Shown: positions 37,567 through 63,661 of the stretch, in pieces
Numbering within the stretch: the first letter of the stretch is position 1
How the letters are laid out: the number at the start of each line of letters is the position of its first letter
From: Octopus vulgaris
Taxonomy: Eukaryota
Length of the DNA stretch: 64,000 bases
Reading direction: 5' to 3'
NCBI GenBank assembly: GCA_951406725.2
Contig: OX597817.1
Span: 158,596,001 to 158,660,000, forward strand
Program-made: the position numbers and the translations under genes
The notes under the pieces: generated by a model
Told to the model about the DNA's origin: nothing
The model's database searches: none
The model's input: the letters and a program-made list of their open reading frames with translations, nothing else

Positions 37567-37656
37567 TTAAATATCAATTATTACAAATATATCATTATCT
37601 TCAACTTTATCATGAATTTGCATGTTGGAATAGGTGATGGCTTTTACTTCCGTTCC
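37567..37656 (-). CDS. ZBTB8OS: Archease exon 9 (GTEVKAITYSNMQIHDKVEDNDIFVIIDI*)
   Basis: ctttacag| acceptor; GTEVKAITY and terminal IIDI motifs; TAA stop. Confidence 0.97.
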   Translation of the reverse strand, partial: GTEVKAITYSNMQIHDKVEDNDIFVIIDI

Positions 37657-40063: not shown

Positions 40064-40100
40064 CTGAGGATGCTTGTCAAGATCGAATTCTTCACCATAC
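40064..40100 (-). CDS. ZBTB8OS: Archease exon 8 (GYGEEFDLDKHPQ)
   Basis: ttgcag|...CAG|gtaagg; 37 nt; GExFxLxKHPQ motif. Confidence 0.95.
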
Positions 40101-40984: not shown

Positions 40985-41037
40985 CCTTCTGCATGTATAG
41001 TTAAATTTTCTAAATCAAATTCTAATATTTTCACTTT
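40985..41037 (-). CDS. ZBTB8OS: Archease exon 7 (KVKILEFDLENLTIHAEG)
   Basis: ttgcag|...|gtaagt; 53 nt; phases fit both neighbours. Confidence 0.92.
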
Positions 41038-42203: not shown

Positions 42204-42286
42204 TCGCACTATAAAGAAAGGTTCAGCACAGAATAGGAATAAGAATTCATCCAAGAAATGATATAAGAGCCCCAGTAAATCATCAC
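42204..42286 (-). CDS. ZBTB8OS: Archease exon 6 (GDDLLGLLYHFLDEFLFLFCAEPFFIVR)
   Basis: tttcag|...|gtaagt; 83 nt; LLxHFLDExL motif. Confidence 0.95.
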
Positions 42287-46284: not shown

Positions 46285-46363
46285 CACTAGCTTTAATTTC
46301 TTGTCTTTCCACCATATCAACTGTATCTATATTTGTCATGTAAGCAAACATTGCCATGGCCGC
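46285..46363 (-). CDS. ZBTB8OS: Archease exon 5 (AAMAMFAYMTNIDTVDMVERQEIKAS-G)
   Basis: ttctgttccag|...G|gtaggt; AMAMFxYMT motif. Confidence 0.93.
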
Positions 46364-48279: not shown

Positions 48280-48595
48280 TGGGGTAGACAGAGACAGACA
48301 GACACACACACACACACAATGGGCTTCTTTTAACTTCCATCCTCCAAATTCACTCTCAAGGTATTGGTCGGCCCGAGGCCATAATAGAAGACACTTGACC
48401 AAGGGGCCATGCAATGAGACTCAAGCTGTAACCACCTGGATGGGAAGCAAGCTTCGTAATCACTCACCTACATCTGCTTGTAACAAAATAAATCTGCAAA
48501 TGGATGAATGACACAAAATCCAATTTTACTTAATTTGAATGTAAATCTGAAGCTCTAAGAAATCATTGATTTATAGAAAAGTGTAAGGTTTTTAC

Positions 48596-48627
48596 CTGTT
48601 CAAAAGACTCCTGAAGTGTGGTGCCCC
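48596..48627 (-). CDS. ZBTB8OS: Archease exon 4, 32 nt (WGTTLQESFEQ)
   Basis: ttccttaactgacatttctctag|...CAG|gtaaaa; matches WGxTLxEAFEQ. Confidence 0.9.
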
Positions 48628-48808
48628 CTAGAGAAATGTCAGTTAAGGAAATATGAGTGGTGATGACTCATGAATGATGATGCTTCATGATGATGGTGAC
48701 AGTATTGTCAAGGGTGTATTTGAACCTCTATGTTAAAACCTACAAAATTCTGTAATCAACTGGAAATCTCCGCAGAAATAGTCGATGTCAGTATCTTGCA
48801 GGTTTTAA

Positions 48809-49028
48809 CCCTTTCATTACCAACCCGGCTGAATCCTGCCCTGGCTCTCAGTATAAATGTTTTGTTTTCATAAGTTTTGAATTAAAATCTCCCACCAAAC
48901 CTTAGTCACAATTTATGTTCCTAACACCAGCTTAATGATAACTGAGTTATTTTACTAAATTCATTGTTATATCTAAAGTAATTGAAAGAAATACAGAGCA
49001 TCTCAAAAGAAATAGAGTAACGAAAGGG
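48809..49028. mobile_element. piggyBac-like MITE
   Basis: TTAA|CCCTTTCATTAC...GTAACGAAAGGG|TTAA; empty site near 54285. Confidence 0.9.
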
Positions 49029-49536
49029 TTAATGTCTATAGAGTGGGTTTCCTCTACAGAGCTATCAAGTATCTGAAATGTTGGAATAAGCACAGGTACT
49101 GAAAATGCATTATGGGATATTGCCTTATTGCAAGAGGAGAGTTCTGACTACTGTGTATGTGTGAGTGCCTTGACATTGCATGATTGTTGTAAATTAATGT
49201 GATTCATTTCCAATGTTCTGCAAGAACATGTCTGGCCACAGGGAGATATTACCTTGCTTGGAAACAGATAAGTGTTGGCAACAGGAAAGACATCCGGCTG
49301 TAGTAAATCTGCCTCAATAAAATCTGTCCAACGCATGCAAGCATGGAAAAGTGGATGTTAAAATGATGATGATGAGGATAATTGTGGAGTAGCAGAATAG
49401 TAAGAAGCAGTCAACTGTAGACATGCTTTGTGATGTTTAACTGTGTCCTTCTGCTTTCTGCATTCAAACCCTCACCTCATTGCTTTAGCCTTCTATCCTT
49501 TCACACAGCAATAAAATCAACTATTGGGAGATATAC

Positions 49537-50040
49537 TGTAAATCCTCGTGTATAATCTGCATTTTTTCCCCAAAATTTAAAGGTCAAAATCCCTAGTGCC
49601 TACTATATATGAGGTTTGAAAGATATTTTCTAAGCAATGTCCAAGTCTCTATTTGCTGTCCGGCAATGTTTATTCAAATGCATTTTGTGATGTCAGATGC
49701 GAAAATACCTTAAGCTAAGCCTGAAAGCTATGAAGTCATAAAAGAATCATCCATAACCTGCAGTAAGCAACATTTATTAAACGTTATTACTGTTATTTCT
49801 TTATTTTCTGCAAACAAAATGCACAAAAAGCTACACGTTTGCATTATGTTACATATACAATAATAATAAAGGACGTTACCGTATACATTTTTACAAACCA
49901 AGGACATTATATAGACCTCCTTGACTCAAGTTAGAGAAGGGGTGCGTATTATACACAAGGTTTAGGTTTTTCAGAGGTACAGCCCCTAAAAGACCCCTGC
50001 GTATTATACTCAAGGGCAGACTATACTCGAGGATTTACAG
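49537..50040. mobile_element. pogo/Tc2-like non-autonomous element inside the U12 intron
   Basis: TA|ctgtaaatcctcgtgtataatc...gactatactcgaggatttacag|TA. Confidence 0.75.
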
Positions 50041-50254
50041 TACTGAATCTAAGATTCTCTTCCTATACAAATTCATGGCTTTGTGTCAAATATGTAAAAT
50101 ACCAATATTATTGCAACTTGAGCAGCAAATAATATTTCATTAGATGCAATGATAAGTGAAATGGATTGAATAAGATGATGATGGTAGTGATGATAGTGAC
50201 AGTGATGATCAGTGACAACATAGCCTCAAATATTAATTAGTTCTCAAAGGATAC

Positions 50255-50265
50255 AGGAATGAATT
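50255..50265 (-). CDS. ZBTB8OS: Archease exon 3, 11-nt micro-exon (Q-IHS-W)
   Basis: ctttacag|AATTCATTCCT|gtatccttt; restores the frame and the conserved Q-[LI]-H-x-W-G motif. Confidence 0.9.
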
Positions 50266-50689
50266 CTGTAAAGACAATAGAAGATGAAAGTAAAAGGTTT
50301 AAATCATTATCATTATTAATAATAAAAACGAAACTACTAAAAGTTCACAGTTATCACAAAGAAATAACAAGACAAAATGAAGCTACACTGGACTAATTGA
50401 TAGTCAGAAGAAAGACTTTCTGAAACACGAAGGACAAACTTGGAGTATCTGTAACAAGCTTCAAAACATCTGTCAGTTAGGGGCGTATATTCTGGGTGTG
50501 CTACGTGTGTGCTGCACACCCCTCGAAAATGGCAAATTCATTATAAATATTAACCTTACTCGTTAATTCAATCACAAATCTTAATGGAAAAATTTTGTTA
50601 TACCCCTGCTTAAAATTTGGTGGCATTGGGTGTGGCTGCACACCCAATACAACAAACATCATACACCACTGCTGTCAATAAAATATTTC

Positions 50690-51150
50690 CAAGTCAGTAG
50701 GGCTGTGATTCTCTAGGGTTTGTGCAGAGAGCATTCTTCTCAGTGGAGCCGAAACATGGACAATGAAAGAGTTTTGAGATTGTCTTCATGGTACATACAC
50801 CAGGTTTTTCATGAGAGCTCAGAACATGGGATGTGAACACAAGACCAAAGTGTAGACTTATGGACACATTCTATCCATCTCCTCTATTGTTGCTAAAAGC
50901 AGAGTATGCTTTGCTGGTCACTGCTATCATATTGAATACCAGATCATGTCAGATGTTATGTTTTGAAGACTTTCACATCCTAATAAGGGATGAAAACCAC
51001 TCAGCTCTGTTGATGTTGCTAATACAGACATGCAACATGAAATCGAAGACCTACCAAAGACAATGGAAGACAAAAAAAAATTCCTTGCATGGCATGGGGA
51101 AGTGTATTTCACCTGTAGTGGCCTGGAGCTAAAGAATGCCACTACAACTA
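50690..51150 (+). mobile_element. Degenerate RTE-like LINE fragment
   Basis: SILLSGAETWTM and FAGHC motifs, with frameshifts and stops. Confidence 0.5.
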
Positions 51151-51355
51151 ATGAAATATATAGGGGTTTATGTCACTACATTTACAAAGTACAGGGAATC
51201 ATCATCATCATCATCATCATCAACAACAAAAACAATATCCATGTTCCATGCTGGCATGCGTGGGGCAGTTTGACAGAATTAGATGAGCCTAAGGACTGGA
51301 CCATGCTCCAGTATTTGGTTTGATATGGTTTCTATGGCTGGACATCATATATTAA

Positions 51356-51577
51356 CCCTTTTGTTACCAACCCAGCTGAAACTGGCTCTGGATCTGAGTA
51401 CAAATGTCTTGTTTTCATAAGTTTTGAATTAAAATCTTCCACCAAACCTTCGTCACAACTTATGTTCCTAACACTAGCTTAATGATAACTACGCTATTTT
51501 ACTAAATTCTTTGATAAAAATTTAAAGTAATTAAAAGAAACACAGAGCATCTCAAAATAAATACAGTAATGAAAGGG
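51356..51577. mobile_element. piggyBac-like MITE, same family
   Basis: TTAA TSD, CCCTTT/AAAGGG termini, same interior. Confidence 0.88.
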
Positions 51578-52568
51578 TTAATGCTGATTATGTCACTACT
51601 ATTACAAACAGAGGGTATTAAGTTACTAAATCAACAGAAGTACAGGGGATTAAGTCACTTCAATTAAATATATACGGGATTATGTCAACAAATATAGATA
51701 CAGAAAACTATGTCACAACAACAACATAAATAGGGGTTATGCAATCCTAATCCTTTATATCCATTTCTTTACTACCCACAAGGGGCTAAACACAGAGGAG
51801 ACAAACAAGGACAGACAGACGGATTAAGTCGATTATATCAACCCCAGTGCGTAACTGGTACTTAATTTATCGACCCCGAAAGGACAAAAGGCAAAGTTGA
51901 CCACAGTGGAATTTGAACTCAGAACGTAGCGGCAGACGAGATACCTATTTCTTTACTACTCACAAAGGGCTAAACACAGAGGAGAAAAACAAGGACAGAC
52001 AGACGGATTAAGTCGATTATATCGACCCCAGTGCGTAACTGGTACTTAATTTATCGCTCCCGAAAGGATGAAAGGCAAAGTTGACCTCGGCGGAATTTGA
52101 ACTCACAACGTAACGGCAGATGAAATACTAAGCACTTTGCCCGGCGTGCTAACATTTCTGCAACAGCATATAGAGAAACTTGCAAATAGTTTGCATATGC
52201 AAGTGCTGCCGATTAAAACCTCTGCATACCAGATACCAGTAAGCTTCAGGGGTCATCAAGAGAGAAAATGCACTGTTTGGGGTGCCTTCCTCTCCATGAC
52301 TTCACAGCACACTGGTCCCCTCACTAATGTGAGGCCCCAACTACTGAATTGACTAACTAGAATTTGATCTTATGTCTTTCATCTTGGGAGCATCAGCACC
52401 ATTCAGACTGTGAAGTTACAACCGCATGTGTAGATTATATCATTACATTTTCAGGTACAGGGTTTAATGTCATTACAGCTACCTATGTAAATTATGTAGT
52501 CATAGTTACATAATCCCTAGTATCATAGGTGCTTTGGTATTAAAAAGGCTGAAGGAGTTGGTACTTAC

Positions 52569-52593
52569 TGGACATCAGCTGGATGGTCCAAGT
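52569..52593 (-). CDS. ZBTB8OS: Archease exon 2, 25 nt (YLDHPADVQ)
   Basis: ttttcag|...|gtaagt; conserved DHxAD motif. Confidence 0.93.
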
Positions 52594-53612
52594 CTGAAAA
52601 AAAAGTTATATAACAATTAAAAAATATAAAATGATTGTTATTAAATAGTTTTAAAAATTGTTTGTTAATGTCATTAATACTAACATATTAACAGCTTTAG
52701 AGTGACCCCAATACTCAACTGGTACTTATTATAATGGGCCTGTAAAGATGACAGGCAAAGTTGACCTCGGGGGAATTTGAACTCAGAATGTAAAGATGGA
52801 CAAAATGCCGTGAAGCATTCCGCCCAATGTAGAAAATGAAATGCTTAGCGGCATTTCATCCGTCTTTACGTTCTGAGTTCAAATTCCTCCGAGGTCAACT
52901 TTGCTTTCCATCCTCTCGGGACCAATAAATTAAGTACCAGTTGAGTACTGAAATCGATATAATCAAATGCCAAAATTTGAAAGCAATATTGGCTTCAACA
53001 CCTAATTACACTTTCATACGGGGTAGTGCACAACATAAGAGATATTGTGCACTCAATACTGACTAGTTGATTTTTGCCATTGGTCCTTATTGGGGGCAAG
53101 GTCATCAGCTTCATTAAATCAAAGTTTGCATCAGGCTATATAATCACTATCATCATCGTTTAACGTCCGCATTCCATGCTGGCATGGGTTGGACGATTTG
53201 ACTGAGGACTGGCGAACCAGACGGCTGCATCAGGCTCCAATCTGATCTGGCAGAGTTTCTACAGCTGGATGTCCTTTCTAACACTAACTAGTGGGTACCT
53301 TTTACGTACCACCGACATGAGGGCCAGTCAGGCAGTACTGGCATGGGAGCCAGTCAGGTGGCACAGGCAACGATCATGCTTGGATGGTGCTTTTTACGTA
53401 CCACTGGTACGGGACCAGTCAGGCAGCACTGGCATCGACCATGCTTAAATGGTACTTTTAATGTGCCACTGGCATGGGTGCCAATCAGTCGGTACTGTCA
53501 TCGGCCATGACAATGACTTCACTTGCCTCAACAGGTCTTCACATGTGCAGTTTATTGCCCAATGATTGATGGGTGCTCTTAAATGGGCTGGTTATGCTGC
53601 ACTGGCATTTTT

Positions 53613-55225
53613 TGCAAATGTATGAATGACACAAAATCCAATTTTACTTAATCTCTATATATAAAAAGCTGAAGTTGTCCGTGTATGGCAGGTTTGGTAG
53701 CCTTCAACTAACACTATCTCCTCCGAGACCCTGCAGCGCAAGTTGACCAAAATTGACAGTATGTTAGAAGAAGGCTTGCTCTTCTTTCTGTAGAAGAAAA
53801 AATTCAAATTGGACCATGTTAACACCAAAAATGTGCATTTTTTCTGTGAAAATCCCTATTTTTTACGATTTTTTTTACTGCTGTGTCGCCATTTTTCGGT
53901 GTATTTCAACCAGAAAAATGTTCACTTAAAGAGAATAACAAGCTACATAATACAAAATTTTACTTTTCAAAAATTCCAATTCTAAAGGGTTGAAACAAAC
54001 CCGAGCAATGCCAGGCGATACTGCTAGTTTGAATATAAATCTGAAGCTTTAAGAATTCGTTGATTTATAAAAGAGTGGAAGGTTTTTACATGTTCAAAAG
54101 ACTCCTGAAGTGTGCTGCCCCCTAGAGATGTCAGTTAAGGAAATATGAGTGGTGATGACTTATGAGTGATGGTGGTGACAGTATTGTCAAGGGTGTATTT
54201 GAACCTCTATGTTAAAACCTACAAAATTCTGAAATCAACTGGAAATCTTCACAGAAATAGTTGATGTCAGTATCTTGCAGGTTTTAATGTCTATGGAGTG
54301 GGTTTCCTCTATAGACCTGACAAGTATCTGAAATGTTGGAATCAGCACAGGTACTGAAAATGCATTGTGGGATATTGTCTTGTTGTAAGAGAAGAGTTTT
54401 GACTCCTCTGTGTATGTGCACGTGTATATGTTATTGTCCAGTTTTATTTCAAGATTTCTTGCCTACAGAATAAGGGCTGGTTTCTAACCTAGATTCAAGG
54501 TTCCTTCATTGGAATTTCAACATCAACAACAGGGTATTTTTGTTTTGAATGTATGTATGTATATGTGCAGATTTGTATGTTTTACTTTATGTATGTATTT
54601 TCATGCATATAGTTGTATATCTAGACATATTCATATGTATTTAAATGATAAACTTTCCAGAAGTTTATCAATATATATGTATGCATGTATGTAAATAAGG
54701 AGCATTCTGTCGGTTGCGACGACGAGGGTCCCAGCTGATACGATCAGCGGAACAGCTTGCTTGTGAAATTAACATGCAAATGGTTGAGCACTCCACTAAC
54801 ACGTGTACCCTTAACGTAGTTCTTGGGAAGATTCAGCGTGACAAGGCTGGCCCTTTGAAATACAGGTACTACTCATTTTTGCCAGTTGAGTGGACTGGAG
54901 CAATAAAATGTCCTGCTCAAGGACACAACGTGCCGCCGGGAATTGAACTTAACTCATGACCCTAACCACTGAGCCATGCGCCTTCATTTGTATGTATGTA
55001 CATATATATGTATACATGTATGATATATGTACATATAGGTGCATACATGTATGATGTATGTATGTACATATATGTGTGTGTGTGAGTGCCTTGACATTGC
55101 ATGATTGTTGTGAATTAATGTGATTCATTTCCAATGTTCTGCAAAAACGTGTCTGGCCACAGGGAAATATTACCTTGCTTGGAAACAGATAAGTGTTGGC
55201 AACAGGAAAGACATCCAGCTGTAGT
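53613..55225 (-). pseudogene. Intragenic duplicate of about 48495-49305 (archease exon 4 with U12 acceptor), in intron 1; pseudo-exon 54090-54121
   Basis: Colinear high similarity with 48495-49305 once each copy's TE insertions are removed; exon copy reads GG GGC AGC ACA CTT CAG GAG TCT TTT GAA CAT|gt. Confidence 0.85.
53652..54027 (+). mobile_element. Non-autonomous Helitron, subfamily B; empty site visible in the paralogous segment
   Basis: acttaa|TC...CTAG|tttgaat versus empty acttaatttgaat near 48530. Confidence 0.92.
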
Positions 55226-56229
55226 ATAGGAATGACTTGGGGGAAGGTATGTTAAATACATGAGGGCACTGGGAGTGAATCCTCTCTAAGACAGTGGTTC
55301 TTAAACTGACAAACAGCAGTGATACCCACCACCACCACCACCAAAAAAGTATCAGTGAAATGCTTGAATTTCTTTCCACCTACTTTATCAATGAGATGAC
55401 AAAATAGATTAATAGATTTTGCATCTGTATAATTCTTCTTTCTTCACTAAGGTTTGACAGATTAAAAAAATTTAAAACCAACCGAATTTTTATTAAACAT
55501 GGCCATTTGTCTATCTCCTTTTCAAACCTCACAGTTCCTGCCACTTATGAGAAACTCTACCTAAGCAAATAGTATCTCACGATTACCACAAGCATATCTT
55601 ATATCATAACCAACATGCCGGTAGTATCTTAGTCACGTACAACCAGATCTACGGTTATAAGTCCACAAAATGGAATAAATTTGGGTATGATGAGAACGAG
55701 AATTCTGATGTTCCGGATCGGACCCTCTGTCCGAGTATATACGGATATAAGGAGAACGCAGATAGACTGTTTACAGTATCCGGCAATCAGTTCAGAAGTC
55801 AGTGATTGCCAGCACGTGTCTTTAAAGTCAACACAGAAACTCTCAAATGACCAGTTCACTTAGCTGCTAAGTTTCACCAGAACTATTTAGTACAATACGC
55901 ACGAAAGATCCGTCTCTCTTTAACTCAAATCTATTCTATATTCCAATACAGATTACAACTAGTTCTTCCACCTCTTACATTTTATTAGCAGCAACCACCA
56001 GATCATCTCATGAATAAGGCAGATTTAATCCGGCCTTTGGGTGTCTTTAGCGATGTCCACTATGTTGTAAATATTCGGATCGAATCTCTAGTCTGAGGGT
56101 ACCTTTCTCTCAGCCTCCCACCAACCACCGAAACCCGTAAAAGGCGGCACTGTCATGCCTTTAGTTGTCAGGAGGAAAGTAGAAAAAGTGATCGAAAAAA
56201 AAAATGCGGTTATCCATTCAGCAGTCTAT

Positions 56230-56355
56230 GGTTAATATCTAGATCCGCACCCGGTGGGAAAAATGAGATCCGCACCCGGTGGGAAAAATGGAAACGAAAA
56301 TGTGTAACAGTTGTAATCTCATTTTTCCCACCGGGTGCGGATCTAGATATTAACC
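56230..56355. mobile_element. Small MITE with 40-bp perfect TIRs and 8-bp TSD (Merlin-like)
   Basis: CAGTCTAT|GGTTAATATCTAGATCCGCACCCGGTGGGAAAAATGAGAT...AACC|CAGTCTAT. Confidence 0.85.
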
Positions 56356-56794
56356 CAGTCTATATCAAAGGACTTTGCCTTGAATCTGATTAAAAGTTAT
56401 CATTACTTTTAAACTTCGGTCTGATCGTGTTGCATGATATACTGAAACCGTTTTAAATCGAAACTACGCATTTTATTTTTTTCTACAACTAATAACTTCT
56501 TAGTTAAGAAACGAAAAGACGAAAATCATCAATGGTAGCCCCATCCAAACACGGTGCTTACCCATTTCTACATTATCTGATGTGTATATTAACACAATCA
56601 AAACAAGACAATGATTTCGAGTCATTTTGTTTACATAAGATGTCGCAATAAGTTCGCTGAAACTCTTTCAAAAGTGGGCTATTTTATCATCAAGAAAAAG
56701 ATAAAAGGTATGAAGGATAACAAGTAATACAGAGCTAATAAACGATCAAAACAAAATAACTGAAAGCAAAGAAAATGTATTTACTAATAATTAC

Positions 56795-56858
56795 ATTCAT
56801 ATTTAATAACAGGCAGTTCCAAGTCCATGAAATCCTGGTTGGTACAATTGTTCGCCAT
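56795..56858 (-). CDS. ZBTB8OS: Archease exon 1 (MANNCTNQDFMDLELPVIKYE)
   Basis: aagATGGCG start; KYE-Y matches the archease N-terminal motif; donor T|GTAATT. Confidence 0.9.
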
Positions 56859-56938
56859 CTTCTTAGAATGAAGAGCCGACTGATGATAAAAGGAGGCCTG
56901 TGATTGGCTAGCTTCCTTGGTTACCAAAAACTACCAAA
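56859..56938. promoter_or_regulatory. Bidirectional promoter region between archease and IQCC
   Basis: 80 bp between divergent ATGs; YY1-like AAGATGGCG at the archease start; CCAAT (attgg 56903-56907); X-box-like gcttccttggttacc 56911-56925. Confidence 0.7.
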
Positions 56939-57016
56939 ATGACTTCCCAAAGTGACACATACTCTTTCAGCCGAAGCAATCCTTCTATTGCACTCCGTCA
57001 GATTCTCCTACTGCAG
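56939..57016 (+). CDS. IQCC: IQCC-like exon 1 (MTSQSDTYSFSRSNPSIALRQILLLQ)
   Basis: caaaATGA start, CAG|GTATTT donor; joins exon 2 to form the IQ motif LQAHIRGFVVR. Confidence 0.8.
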
Positions 57017-59241
57017 GTATTTTGACATTTTCGCGGCTCTAATTACATACTGATGTATCGCTTTTGTCTGTAGATAGTGGTTTGTATTCCATTAGGTATA
57101 AAGGTAAATGTTGTTGTTGTGTAGCACCTGCTAGTTCTGATCGAGCGGGACGTCCCATTAAATCAATATCGTTTACCGGTTGATGAAACCGGTAAAAGAA
57201 AATGAAATGAAAAAAAATACACAAATTTAGCGAAAACGGAAAATTTTAACAGTTACATATGTGTTTGTGTTTATCAATCAATAAGTTAACTCAACTTTAG
57301 GAAAGTTCTAACAGTTACATGTGTGTGTTTATTTGTCAATAAATTAACTCAAAGCTGGTGTTAACAAAAATTAAAGCAGTTATCTCAAACAATGACCTTT
57401 TACTTATTCGTTTCGGTTATTCAGGGAAGCGAATTTATTTTTGCACATTCCCTATTATCGTTGGTTCATTTTTAATTGCTACCACTTTAGTTAAAGATTG
57501 CTCTTTTCTTATTAAATGTCTCTTCAGATATTTAAGGGATGGTGAAACGAGATTTTGTGATAGTTGTTCTGCTCAAACATTAATTGCAGTCAAAAATTAA
57601 TAATCGACACCTGTTTTTGAGCTAAGACACGTGTAGATGTCTCACTACTCTCCACTCTCTTAACTAATTATCTTCGCCTTTTATGACTCAGTTGATGAAC
57701 AAACAATGTCAGTGTCAACGTAATTGATTCATTCATATCAAGTCTACTTTAAATGTGGAGAGGATAAAATTTGTTCAGTAAGATTGCAATATGAGTGCTT
57801 ATATCATAGCTTAAGCCAACAGGAGTACTTGAACTTAGCACTGCAATCTAATGTAAATACTTGTCTATTATGCACTGCTCCTGTTGTCACTTGGTGAGTT
57901 AAACTAATGAAGGTTAATTTTGCAGGACATTGTCACAACACCTGATTTTCCAGCATCCTTCACTTTGGTACAACAAAAATATGATGGAAACATTTGGGTA
58001 TGACGAAGTAGTTAGGTTACAGTTAAGGGTAACCAGTATTGTGTATATTGCTACTTGAGTGACGCTATTTTCTTAATGTAGATGGCAAATTGTTAATGCG
58101 ATGCAAAAATAACAGAAGTTGACCCTTCAACCAGTAACTCTATTCCCTATTGTATTTCAACCAATTGCAATTGTCCGCCGTCAGGGCGATCCAGTAACGA
58201 CCCCAGTGCGTAACTGCTACTTAATTTATCGACCCCGAAAAGATGAAAGGCAAAGTCGACCTCAGCAGAATTTGAACTCAGAACGTAACAGCAGACGAAA
58301 GGCCGCTAAGCATTTCGCCCGGTGAGCTAACGTTTCTGCCAGCTCGCCGCCTTTGTATCTATCCTTCAAGACTCCCATTTAATTGAGGGGTTTTTCTCTT
58401 GCAAGTTACTTGGTGATCTAGCTGCTGCTTTTGCTGGTATCGCTCAAAAATGCACCCAGTATGCTGTATAAAGAGGTTGGTATGAAGAAGGACATCCAGA
58501 GCCAACAGCAAGGCTTAAACCATCAAACCCATGACAGCATGGGAAATGGTCATGAAATTATGATGTTGATGATGCCACCACACCATAACAAGGACTGGAC
58601 CTTATGGTGGGTGGTACATTATAGTGTAGTATATTTGAATGCGAAGGTGCATGGTTCAGTGGTTAGAGTGTCAGGCTAACAATTATGAGGTACTGAGTTC
58701 AATTCCTGGACTGGACTGTATGTTGTGTTCTTGAGCAAGACACTTTATTTCATGTTGCTCCACTTCACTCAGCTGTAGAAATGAATTGTGATGTCTTTCC
58801 CTTGAGTAACATCAGTGGCATAGAGAGGGGAGGCTGGTATGCCTGTGTATCTACTGGTCTTCCATAAGCAACCTTGCCCAGACTTGTGCCTTGGAGGGGA
58901 ACTTTCTAGGTACAGTCCCATGGTCATTCATGTATTTAGGACTTCATTACACTTCCTTTTCTAAGGTAGAGTGTGATTTGAGGGAGATTTGGCAGTTATT
59001 TCTTCCAATATGTTAAAAGTGATTCACTTCTGTAAGCCCTTCAGGCGAAAGGCCCTAATGCAAATGTAAACCGACCTGTTATGTCATCGACACCTTGTGT
59101 TGCATGCTTATATCTATTGTTTTCTTCTTTCTTCTTAAAGCTCAGACAGTACAGTTATTGCCTATTTATATCTTTATTTATACTGTTATTACTCCCAAAG
59201 TATCATATCCATCATATGTATTTATTTATTTATTCCTATAG

Positions 59242-59971
59242 GCCCATATTCGTGGTTTTGTTGTCCGACATCGGATGAAAAAACTAAGAACAGAATTTGA
59301 GGAAATTATGCAGGAAATTCATCCCAATGGAAATCTTCATGTTGTTTGGAAAAGAAATTTGTTATGCTTACCTGAATTTTCTTCAAAGAAAGAAAGTTGT
59401 AAACCATTCCAGTTGAATTCTAAACCAAATAAATCAAAACCTCCTGAACTTCTAACTAGACCAGAGAACCATTCAATTCCTGGAAATTTTAGCAAACATT
59501 CTTCAAAAACATGTTCTAACTTTTCTGCTGAAAATTTTACATCAGATTCTTTGAACCGGTGTCTAAATAATCAAACATCTATAAATACCACTGAACATTA
59601 CAATATACAAGGAATTAATAGTGAAAGAGACAAAGAAGTACATAGAGGTGAAGAATTGGTTGAAAAAGATGGGAATCATATTATAGAAGACTCTATTGAG
59701 TCAGTGCAACTGAAGAACGAGAGAAAAATTTCCTTGCATACGGACTGCAGTGAGACAGATTTTGATAGAAAAGCTCCAAATCATCGTGATCATTTGTTTA
59801 GAAATGGAAATAGTCTTCCAAGAAATTCAAGAAAAGAACAGTTCATGAAAAATGGCAATGGCTCCATTTCTACAGCATCATTTTGTTTGCCTGTATCTTC
59901 TCCTACACCATTTGACTGTTCATCTTTGACTGATGTCACCTCAGTTTGGGACAGCACCCCATCATCTCCAG
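59242..59971 (+). CDS. IQCC: IQCC-like exon 2 (AHIRGFVVRHRMKKLRTEFEEIMQEI... then disordered)
   Basis: ttcctatag| acceptor; G|GTAATT donor; IQ motif followed by LRxE[FY]ExI as in the IQCC N-terminus. Confidence 0.85.
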
Positions 59972-60544
59972 GTAATTTATCATCATCATCATTGTTTAAC
60001 GTCTGTTTTCTATGCTAGCATGGGTTGGACTGTTTGACCGGGGTTTGGGAAGCCAGGAGGCTGCACCAGGCCCCAGTCTGATCTGGTAGTGTTTCTACAG
60101 CTGGATGCCCTTCCTAACGCCAACCACTCCGTGAGTGTAGTGGGTGCTTTTTACGTGCCACTGGCACAGGTGCCAGGCGAGGCTGGCAATGGCCACGATC
60201 GGTTGGTGCTTTTTACGTGCCACCGGCATGGAAGCCAGTCAAGGCAGAGCTGGCATCAGCCACGTATGGATGGTGCATTTTACGTGCCACCAGCACAGGT
60301 ATCACAACTACAATTTCCATTTGATTATATATTTGTATTCCAGTAGCAGAATTGCTAGGATCTCTGACTGATTTCCTTGCGATATTTAGTCACATCTTTT
60401 TACATTCTGAGGTTATACTGCCAGAGTTGACTTTATCTTTCATTCTGCCTGGGTTGATAGAATAAATTCCAGTGAAGTACTTGAACTGATTAGACCAACT
60501 GTACACACCCACTTCCCTTGTATGTCTCTTTGTACTAAACTTAA

Positions 60545-63159: not shown

Positions 63160-63252
63160 AAAAAAAATGTATCAATACTGTAATGTAAGTTGCTGTTATT
63201 TGTGTGGTTTGATGATAATAATCCATTTGCTTTTGTTCTCATCTTAAATCAG

Positions 63253-63368
63253 ATATCACATTAGATGACATCCAGGCTTCAGAAACTTCAAGCTCTTTGC
63301 TGCAGGAGAGACAGAATTTGGCCATGGAGTTAGTGTGGATACAACAAGCAATATCAAGTCGGAAAAAT
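63253..63368 (+). CDS. IQCC: IQCC-like exon 3 (DITLDDIQ...QNLAMELVWIQQAISSRKN); gene continues beyond the window
   Basis: aaatcag| acceptor phase 1; AAT|GTGAGT donor; LAMELxWxQQAIxSRK is the conserved IQCC motif. Confidence 0.88.
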
Positions 63369-63661
63369 GTGAGTTGAAAGCTTTAGCATAACTCTTTTTC
63401 TTTCTTTTTTTCCCTTTTTCTTTCTTTTTTTTTCCCCTTTTTCTTTCTTTTTTTTTTTTTCCCTTTTTCTTGTTTCAGTCATGTGACTGTATCCGTGCTG
63501 GAGCACCACCTTTAGTCGAGCAAATTGACCCCAAGACTTATTCTTAGTAAGCCTAATACTTATTCTATCGGTCTCTTTTGCTGAACCGCCAGGTGACGGG
63601 GACATAAACACACCAGCATCGGTTGTCAAGCAATGCTAGGGGGACAAACATAGACACACAA

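What the first reader, a model, noticed from the sequence alone, without database searches (positions are those of the whole stretch)
48596..50265. Archease has an 11-nt micro-exon between a major (U2) intron and a minor (U12) intron
Seen: exon 50255-50265 (AATTCATTCCT) is preceded by a U2-type pyrimidine tract and CAG, and followed by GTATCCTTT. That intron ends TTCCTTAACtgacatttctcTAG. Established: RTATCCTT and TCCTTAAC near the 3'SS are the U12 consensus elements, and archease is the cofactor of the RtcB ligase used in tRNA splicing and XBP1 mRNA ligation. From memory, the equivalent human exon is a single 122-nt exon; here 11+32+79=122, so two extra introns split it. Inference: an ancestral or lineage-specific minor intron could make RtcB activity depend on minor-spliceosome efficiency, and gene predictors would probably mis-model it.
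Basis: partly seen in the sequence, partly recalled or inferred. Interest (0 to 1): 0.8.

Follow-up and report, generated by a model that had tools for sequence, protein, structure and literature searches.

The report
Ancient minor intron beside archease micro-exon
In this octopus the gene for archease, the helper of the RNA-joining enzyme RtcB, has an 11-base exon followed by an intron carrying the signals of the rare "minor" splicing machinery; the same layout sits in coral-like and sponge-like genomes, so it is likely an old animal feature that fish and insects lost, not an octopus invention and not a shown control switch.

Summary
Confirmed. The window holds a nine-exon octopus archease gene (157 aa, identical to the O. 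vulgaris and O. sinensis records). Exon 3 (50265-50255, 11 nt) follows a U2-type intron and precedes a 1627-nt GT-AG intron with perfect U12 donor and branch consensus that pair with this genome's U11, U6atac and U12 snRNAs. RNA-type contigs from 3 of 4 runs join the flanking exons; one contig's length fits micro-exon inclusion. The layout is old: micro-exon plus U12-type donor recurs in coral-like, sponge-like and other bilaterian loci; the same intron position is U2-type in Trebouxia-, Elliptochloris- and Acanthamoeba-like loci; the intron is gone in fish-, insect-, Daphnia- and one bivalve-like locus. So the 122-nt exon is the derived state. Octopod gene models are right, but several other animals' models break here. 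No regulatory role is shown, and repeated loss argues against an essential one. Octopus bimaculoides has 401 minor introns, so this is a new member of a known kind. The scan noted micro-exons beside minor introns before, in other genes.

The parts
56795..56858 (-). archease exon 1, coding part (64 nt); transcribed leader reaches at least 57177
   Evidence: RNA-type contigs cover 56795-57177 and join to 52593 in 3 of 4 runs
52569..52593 (-). exon 2 (25 nt), encodes YLDHPADVQ with Asp28 (human D51, Mn ligand)
50266..52568 (-). intron 2, U2-type (GTAAGT ... pyrimidine tract, CAG), 2303 nt, phase 2
50255..50265 (-). exon 3, the 11-nt micro-exon (end of Q30, I31 H32 S33, first base of W34)
50246..50254 (-). 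U12-type 5' splice site GTATCCTTT, no AG at -2/-1
   Evidence: pairs with U11 (-6.6 kcal/mol, best of 8 introns) and the U6atac AAGGAGA box
48628..50254 (-). intron 3, GT-AG U12-type, 1627 nt, phase 1
   Evidence: same position and type in L053, L064, L020, L009 group
48641..48651 (-). U12-type branch site TTTCCTTAACT, likely branch A at 48643
   Evidence: pairs with G000 U12 snRNA (L122)
48596..48627 (-). exon 4 (32 nt)
   Evidence: joint at 48627 in 3 of 4 runs
46285..46363 (-). exon 5 (79 nt)
42204..42286 (-). exon 6 (83 nt)
40985..41037 (-). exon 7 (53 nt)
40064..40100 (-). exon 8 (37 nt)
37567..37656 (-). exon 9, coding part (90 nt with stop), holds Lys133 (human K156) and the terminal DI
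54025..54418 (-). local duplicate (88%) of the intron 3 end, U12 branch site and exon 4 inside intron 1; pseudo-exon 54121-54090 with donor -1 G changed to T; inclusion would shift the frame
   Evidence: only these two full-length copies among 26 matches in G000

Best explanation
The octopus archease gene has an 11-nt coding exon between a U2-type intron and an intron with full U12-type signals, likely spliced by the minor spliceosome and likely inherited unchanged from the last common ancestor of animals. Shown: the signals, the cognate snRNA genes, the need for the 11 nt in the protein, and the same layout in coral-like and sponge-like loci. Inferred history: the phase-1 intron in the Trp codon is older than animals (same position, U2-type, in green algae and Acanthamoeba, where exons 2 and 3 are one 36-nt exon); a U2 intron gained 11 nt upstream cut off the micro-exon; later lineages deleted the minor intron (fish-, insect-, Daphnia-, one bivalve-like locus) or converted it to U2 (arthropod-like L074). 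Inferred mechanism: intron 2 is usually removed first, fusing the 11 nt to exon 2, and U11/U12 then removes intron 3 more slowly; the exon is constitutive, and failure gives a stop after 36-38 codons and likely decay. It is a retained ancestral intron, not a dedicated switch.
For: Consensus 7/7 and 9/9, unique among 8 introns. U11, U12, U6atac found in G000 above Rfam cut-offs and complementary. Joined translation equals P0001 = CAI9722090.1 = XP_029635819.1, Pfam Archease E 1.4e-42. Joints 56795>52593 and 52569>48627 in X1, X3, X11; the X1 contig has 321 nt beyond exon 1, which is exons 2-8 with the micro-exon (320) plus the one G shared by exon 9 and intron 8. One X3 contig (depth 2.3 against 120) has 10 unlaid letters, then runs exactly from 50265 into intron 3: fits intron 2 spliced, intron 3 retained. 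Of 118 metagenome loci, 15 have micro-exon plus GTATC[CT]T donor, 1 micro-exon plus U2 donor, 41 the same intron position with U2 donor and no intron 2, 22 intron 2 only, 15 neither, 24 unresolved. L020 has all 8 octopus intron positions. L053 groups with Acropora/Montipora; L021 with Trebouxia; L058 with Elliptochloris; L066 is 96-98% Acanthamoeba.
Against: intronIC was not run and U12-dependence was not assayed. The aligner did not show the letters between 52569 and 48627 ('between: not known'); inclusion rests on contig length and public protein records. X5 gave no joint. The runs are only guessed to be RNA. The retained-intron contig is single, low-depth, and its 10 letters were not printed. 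The 15 loci are about three independent groups, and in 6 of them only the donor was held. Sponge assignment of L020/L064 rests on an N-terminal CDLxEVSR signature shared with Ephydatia; the quick tree did not group them with it, and L112 is only by likeness. The L020 donor is imperfect (GTATCTTG, 4 of 7). The 10-locus bilaterian group could not be placed.
Confidence: 0.82

Rival explanations
1. The micro-exon and U12 intron form a conserved throttle or switch: low minor-spliceosome activity causes retention or U2-donor-to-U12-acceptor skipping of exon 3, cutting functional archease (or making a 134-aa form from an internal ATG that lacks the metal-binding Asp) and so limiting tRNA ligation and XBP1 splicing.
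For: Layout kept in coral-, sponge- and octopus-type genes. Skip-type 'isoform X2' records exist in Acropora millepora, A. muricata, A. palmata and Ptychodera, and similar models in Elysia marginata and Sinanodonta. The octopus skip product from the ATG at 56800 is in frame, 134 aa, without Asp28; human D51A abolishes RTCB guanylylation (PMC10944509). Slow minor splicing and such skipping (MAPK12) are described (PMC8329584).
Against: Lost or converted in 23 of the 38 resolved loci that have intron 2. No skip-specific joint could be told from the main one, and the retained form was about 2% by contig depth, a poor measure. X2 models are what an aligner makes when it misses 11 nt. Larue and Roy argue for largely neutral minor-intron evolution (PMC10639083). 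No tissue data.
Confidence: 0.1
2. The intron was U2-type in the last eukaryotic ancestor and became U12-type on the animal stem (major-to-minor conversion), instead of being an ancient minor intron converted to major in the protists and algae.
For: All 41 loci without intron 2 have U2 donors, none U12. U12 branch remnants are not enriched in 22 such introns against 41 control acceptors (mean 5.3 vs 4.9 of 9, p=0.30). Olthof 2024 allows conversion both ways (PMC11347168).
Against: Minor-to-major is the usual assumed direction and de novo minor introns are rare (PMC10639083). Sampled lineages are mostly poor in minor introns (Acanthamoeba about 12; ochrophytes none), so they would show U2 either way. 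2 of 22 have 8/9 branch matches (L066, L056) against 0 of 41 controls. This rival concerns direction before animals only and is compatible with the rest of the best explanation.
Confidence: 0.2
3. The intron only looks minor and is spliced by the major spliceosome, or the 11 nt come from another place.
For: GT-AG ends; the last 20 nt are 71% pyrimidine like the other introns; RNA letters at the joint were not shown.
Against: No U1-type GTRAG match, T at -1, perfect U12 donor and branch, donor conserved as GTATCC in distant animals while flanking intron sequence is not; only one candidate exon gives the conserved residues.
Confidence: 0.04

Closest known systems
GT-AG U12-type (minor) introns catalogued by intronIC/introns.info (Larue and Roy 2023, PMC10639083) and MIDB (Olthof 2024, PMC11347168)
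   Same: Donor, branch site, short branch-to-acceptor distance, phase 1, no AG at -2/-1, patchy loss and conversion. Both surveys include Octopus; O. bimaculoides has 401 minor introns and all four snRNAs, so this intron is probably already a row in those databases.
   Different: It is absent from the vertebrate-like gene, so human-centred lists miss it; it sits behind an 11-nt exon. I found no paper naming it.
Human archease (ZBTB8OS; PDB 8BTX, 8ODO; PMC10944509)
   Same: Same protein family and length, E 8.6e-53, catalytic Asp, Lys and terminal DI kept.
   Different: DHPAD instead of DHTAD. Exons 3-5 are one 122-nt exon in the fish-like L004 (recalled as the same for human). Olthof Table S6 lists a 629-nt human ZBTB8OS intron as 'minor-like', responsive in 1 of 9 datasets; which intron it is could not be checked.
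Major-minor crosstalk exons (MAPK12 skipping, MAPK8/9, TMEM87, SRSF10, CENATAC; PMC8329584)
   Same: An exon bounded by a U2 acceptor and a U12 donor; skipping would join a U2 donor to a U12 acceptor as in MAPK12.
   Different: Those have shown regulated or disease isoforms; here none is shown, and the exon is frame-breaking and only 11 nt.
Micro-exons (3-27 nt; constitutive non-3n cases such as the 4-nt MPC1 exon, PMC9929638, search listing only)
   Same: Tiny, often missed by annotation, essential for frame.
   Different: Not the neural, frame-preserving, SRRM4-type class; its downstream intron is minor.

Membership tests
U12-type intron | 5' splice site RTATCCTTT | tested here: met
   7 of 7 at +3..+9; other 7 introns 1-3 of 7
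U12-type intron | Branch site TTCCTTRAY about 10-20 nt from the acceptor | tested here: met
   9 of 9, branch A 16 nt from the end
U12-type intron | Host has minor snRNAs complementary to the signals | tested here: met
   U11 E 4e-15, U12 E 1e-23, U6atac E 2e-21; duplexes best of 8 introns, though the U12 margin is small (-8.8 vs -7.9). U4atac not searched in G000.
U12-type intron | Type conserved at the orthologous position | tested here: met
   15 of 16 resolved loci with the micro-exon have a GTATC[CT]T donor, about three independent groups
U12-type intron | intronIC / PWM score in the minor range | not testable with these tools
   program and matrices not on hand; consensus counts used instead
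U12-type intron | Splicing depends on U11/U12/U4atac/U6atac | not testable with these tools
   needs knock-down or minigene
Micro-exon (27 nt or less, included in mRNA) | Flanked by used splice sites and present in mRNA | tested here: met
   contig length 321 = 320+1 and a contig laid from exactly 50265; public proteins carry IHSW/IHAW; the 11 letters themselves were not printed
Regulated (neural, SRRM4-type) micro-exon | Frame-preserving and tissue-switched | tested here: not met
   11 nt, skipping stops the main frame after 38 residues; tissue switching not testable
Archease (PF01951) | Pfam score above cut-off; Asp, Lys and terminal DI kept | tested here: met
   145.7 bits vs 25; D28, K133, D156-I157 align to human D51, K156, D178-I179
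Minor-spliceosome regulatory switch (SRSF10/CENATAC kind) | Competing isoforms whose ratio follows minor-spliceosome activity | tested here: inconclusive
   one low-depth retained-intron contig; skip-type records in other animals may be artefacts

The most novel reading that the evidence does not exclude
An animal-wide, over-600-million-year-old switch: when the minor spliceosome is limiting, the 11-nt exon is skipped or intron 3 retained, removing archease or producing a form without its metal-binding aspartate, so minor-spliceosome activity gates RtcB-dependent tRNA and XBP1 ligation in sponges, corals and molluscs; fish and insects discarded it.
Probability: 0.1. Interest if true: 0.68.

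Novelty: new member of a known kind. Interest (0 to 1): 0.33.

Why it matters
As it stands it is a clean worked case of minor-intron history: one position traced from algae and amoebae through sponge-, coral- and octopus-type genes, with deletion in several lineages and one conversion caught with the micro-exon still in place. It explains a cluster of wrong public archease models that lack the catalytic motif, and it offers a compact natural minigene (sponge-like L064: 56-nt U2 intron, 11-nt exon, 136-nt U12 intron) for asking how U2 and U11/U12 complexes share 11 bases. If the regulatory reading were true it would link the minor spliceosome to tRNA splicing and the unfolded protein response.

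Tried and rejected
Pfam search of G000 found no match because exons are short. The look-up of sequencing runs: no RNA holder listed on record; runs used are guessed RNA; X5 gave no joints; exon 4>5 junction lay outside the stretch laid; 290 joints were not shown, so use of the pseudo-exon is not excluded. Handles for metagenome loci not held. Atlas on the L020 glucan-binding neighbour did not place the organism; ten relatives of its other neighbour carried no names. The careful tree did not finish; the quick tree leaves 42 of 91 forks open and puts the 37%-filled L064 on a long branch beside amoebozoans, which I do not trust. U12 remnants in non-animal introns: not significant. Rejected: the U12 3' end being part of a dispersed repeat (only a 50-60 nt intronic piece is repeated); lineage-specific gain; mis-modelling in octopods. 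Literature: no paper with archease + minor intron, ZBTB8OS + minor spliceosome; one irrelevant listing each for ZBTB8OS + U12 and archease + U12-type + intron; searches gave nothing on this intron; supplements of PMC3291851, PMC2831892, PMC10639083 have no archease entry. introns.info and MIDB themselves, subscription journals and bioRxiv supplements could not be searched and may list it.

Full report
Gene and organism. The minus strand carries a nine-exon gene: 56858-56795, 52593-52569, 50265-50255, 48627-48596, 46363-46285, 42286-42204, 41037-40985, 40100-40064, 37656-37567. All eight introns are GT-AG and the joined frame is 157 aa. It is identical to P0001, on record as Octopus vulgaris CAI9722090.1 and Octopus sinensis XP_029635819.1 'protein archease', scores 145.7 bits on PF01951 and aligns without gaps over the motif to human archease structures. 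Asp28, Lys133 and the terminal DI correspond to human D51, K156 and D178-I179, which bind Mn and phosphate in the RTCB complex (PMC10944509, passages and sections 8-9 read). The micro-exon lies just after Asp28 and encodes I-H-S and the first base of Trp34.

The signals. Intron 3 (1627 nt, phase 1) starts GTATCCTTT and has TTTCCTTAACT with the likely branch A 16 nt from a TAG acceptor. It alone of the 8 introns matches the U12 donor (7 of 7 against 1-3) and branch (9 of 9 against 6-7) consensus (consensus from established knowledge). Neither motif is rare in 64 kb; the evidence is their joint position at borders the protein requires. G000 holds U11 (5 matches), U12 (3, 2 over cut-off) and U6atac (43). 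The U11 5' end and U12 branch-recognition region pair best with intron 3 and the U6atac box is complementary to the donor.

RNA. No holder was on record as RNA; I laid 4 of the 24 listed runs, all guessed RNA, as contigs on 48400-57200. X1, X3 and X11 join 56795 to 52593 and 52569 to 48627; X5 shows neither. The tool could not print the letters between 52569 and 48627. The X1 contig has 321 nt beyond exon 1; exons 2-8 sum to 320 with the micro-exon and 309 without, and exon 9 and intron 8 share only their first base, so a fork at 321 is what inclusion predicts. One X3 contig (depth 2.3 against 120) has 10 unlaid letters and then matches 50265-50085 without error, which fits intron 2 spliced and intron 3 retained; the 10 letters were not shown. 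Skipping or retention stops the main frame after 38 or 36 residues.

Other organisms. Of 118: 15 have intron 2, the 11-nt exon and a GTATC[CT]T donor; 1 (L074, arthropod-like) keeps the micro-exon with a GTAAGT donor; 41 lack intron 2 but have a U2-type intron at the same Trp position; 22 have intron 2 only; 15 have neither; 24 held too little DNA. Loci are redundant. The 15 fall into a coral group (L043, L053; 87% to Acropora, grouped with Acropora and Montipora), a sponge-like group (L020, L064, probably L112; N-terminal signature shared with Ephydatia, not recovered as a clade) and ten related bilaterian loci I could not place. L020 has all eight octopus intron positions, with a weaker donor (GTATCTTG) and a good branch site; L064 has both signals in a 136-nt intron. 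The U2-type group includes Trebouxia-like (L021, 90%), Elliptochloris-like (L058), Chlorella-like (L106) and Acanthamoeba (L066, 96-98%) genes. The intron-less group includes a fish-like gene with one 122-nt exon (L004), termite-, bee-, thrips-, scale-insect- and Daphnia-like genes, and a Dreissena-like bivalve that kept introns 2 and 4 but lost intron 3 exactly (L041).

History. Shown: shared position and type among octopus, coral-like and sponge-like genes; shared position with algae and amoebae. Inferred: the animal ancestor had the nine-exon gene with a U12 intron 3; intron 2 was added 11 nt upstream of an older intron; losses and one conversion followed. Whether the intron was minor before animals is open: branch remnants are not enriched in 22 non-animal introns against 41 controls (p=0.30), and these lineages are mostly poor in minor introns (PMC10639083, passages and section 25 read).

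Annotation. The three octopod records are intact. Among 87 named proteins that I picked by hand, 14 lack the intact motif; breaks fall at the exon 2/3/4 borders in Corticium, Ephydatia, Paralvinella, Ptychodera X2, Lamellibrachia, Dreissena X2, Acanthamoeba and Chromochloris, and in Acropora X2, Elysia marginata and Sinanodonta. This is not a rate. Several read exon 2 out of frame from an internal ATG and jump to exon 4; the octopus gene could do the same (134 aa, no Asp28). Whether these are real isoforms or alignment artefacts is untested.

Function. The minor intron makes archease formally dependent on the minor spliceosome, and slow minor splicing and U2-donor-to-U12-acceptor skipping are known (PMC8329584, passages and part of section 7 read). 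But nothing here shows regulated use, the intron is gone or converted in 23 of 38 resolved loci that have intron 2, and O. bimaculoides has 401 minor introns among about 114,000 (PMC11347168, passages and supplement rows). I put the switch at about 10%.

Novelty. Eight literature searches and four supplement searches found no description of this intron. One row lists a human ZBTB8OS intron as minor-like and CENATAC-responsive; I could not tell which intron. Both large surveys include Octopus and publish databases that I could not query, so it is probably catalogued automatically. Earlier scan notes describe micro-exons beside minor introns in other genes (unchecked). Verdict: real, well supported, a new member of a known kind, with a tidy evolutionary story; interest 0.33.

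Noticed in passing
window + strand 59242-60015 and 63222-63374; L020:4222-5013, L064:580-1218, L043, L053, L063: A gene of one family lies head-to-head with archease in the octopus window and in sponge-like and coral-like loci (profile from relatives of the L020 gene hits the window at E 6.5e-11 and 2e-12; atlas names the family IQ domain-containing protein C at 0.96 with low recognition). Suggests an ancient divergent gene pair; not detected in the other loci scanned, many of which hold little upstream DNA.
   Followed up: partly
window 54025-54418 and 55073-55226, - strand: Local duplicate of about 800 nt of intron 3, its U12 branch site and exon 4 in intron 1, 88-96% identical and broken by insertions; the pseudo-exon keeps AG and GT but would shift the frame. 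RNA contigs splice across it.
   Followed up: partly
G000, 43 places (L125 best): U6atac has 43 dispersed matches against 3-5 for U12 and U11; 45 copies are already tabulated for O. bimaculoides (PMC11347168 Table S7). Likely retrocopies.
   Followed up: no
window 52569-52593: Octopods have DHPAD where most archeases have DHTAD; also seen in Centruroides, Trichonephila, Homarus, Pollicipes, Palaemon, Balamuthia and L020, L064.
   Followed up: no
L074:1927-2160: Arthropod-like compact gene keeps the 11-nt exon but with a GTAAGT donor and pyrimidine tract: an apparent minor-to-major conversion.
   Followed up: partly
PMC11347168 Table S6, human chr1:32634073-32634701: A human ZBTB8OS intron is classed minor-like and responds to CENATAC depletion at 24 h only (1 of 9 datasets).
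   Followed up: no
window 40209 and 38000, - strand: Further TCCTTAAC matches inside introns 7 and 8, far from the acceptors and without U12 donors; read as chance.
   Followed up: no
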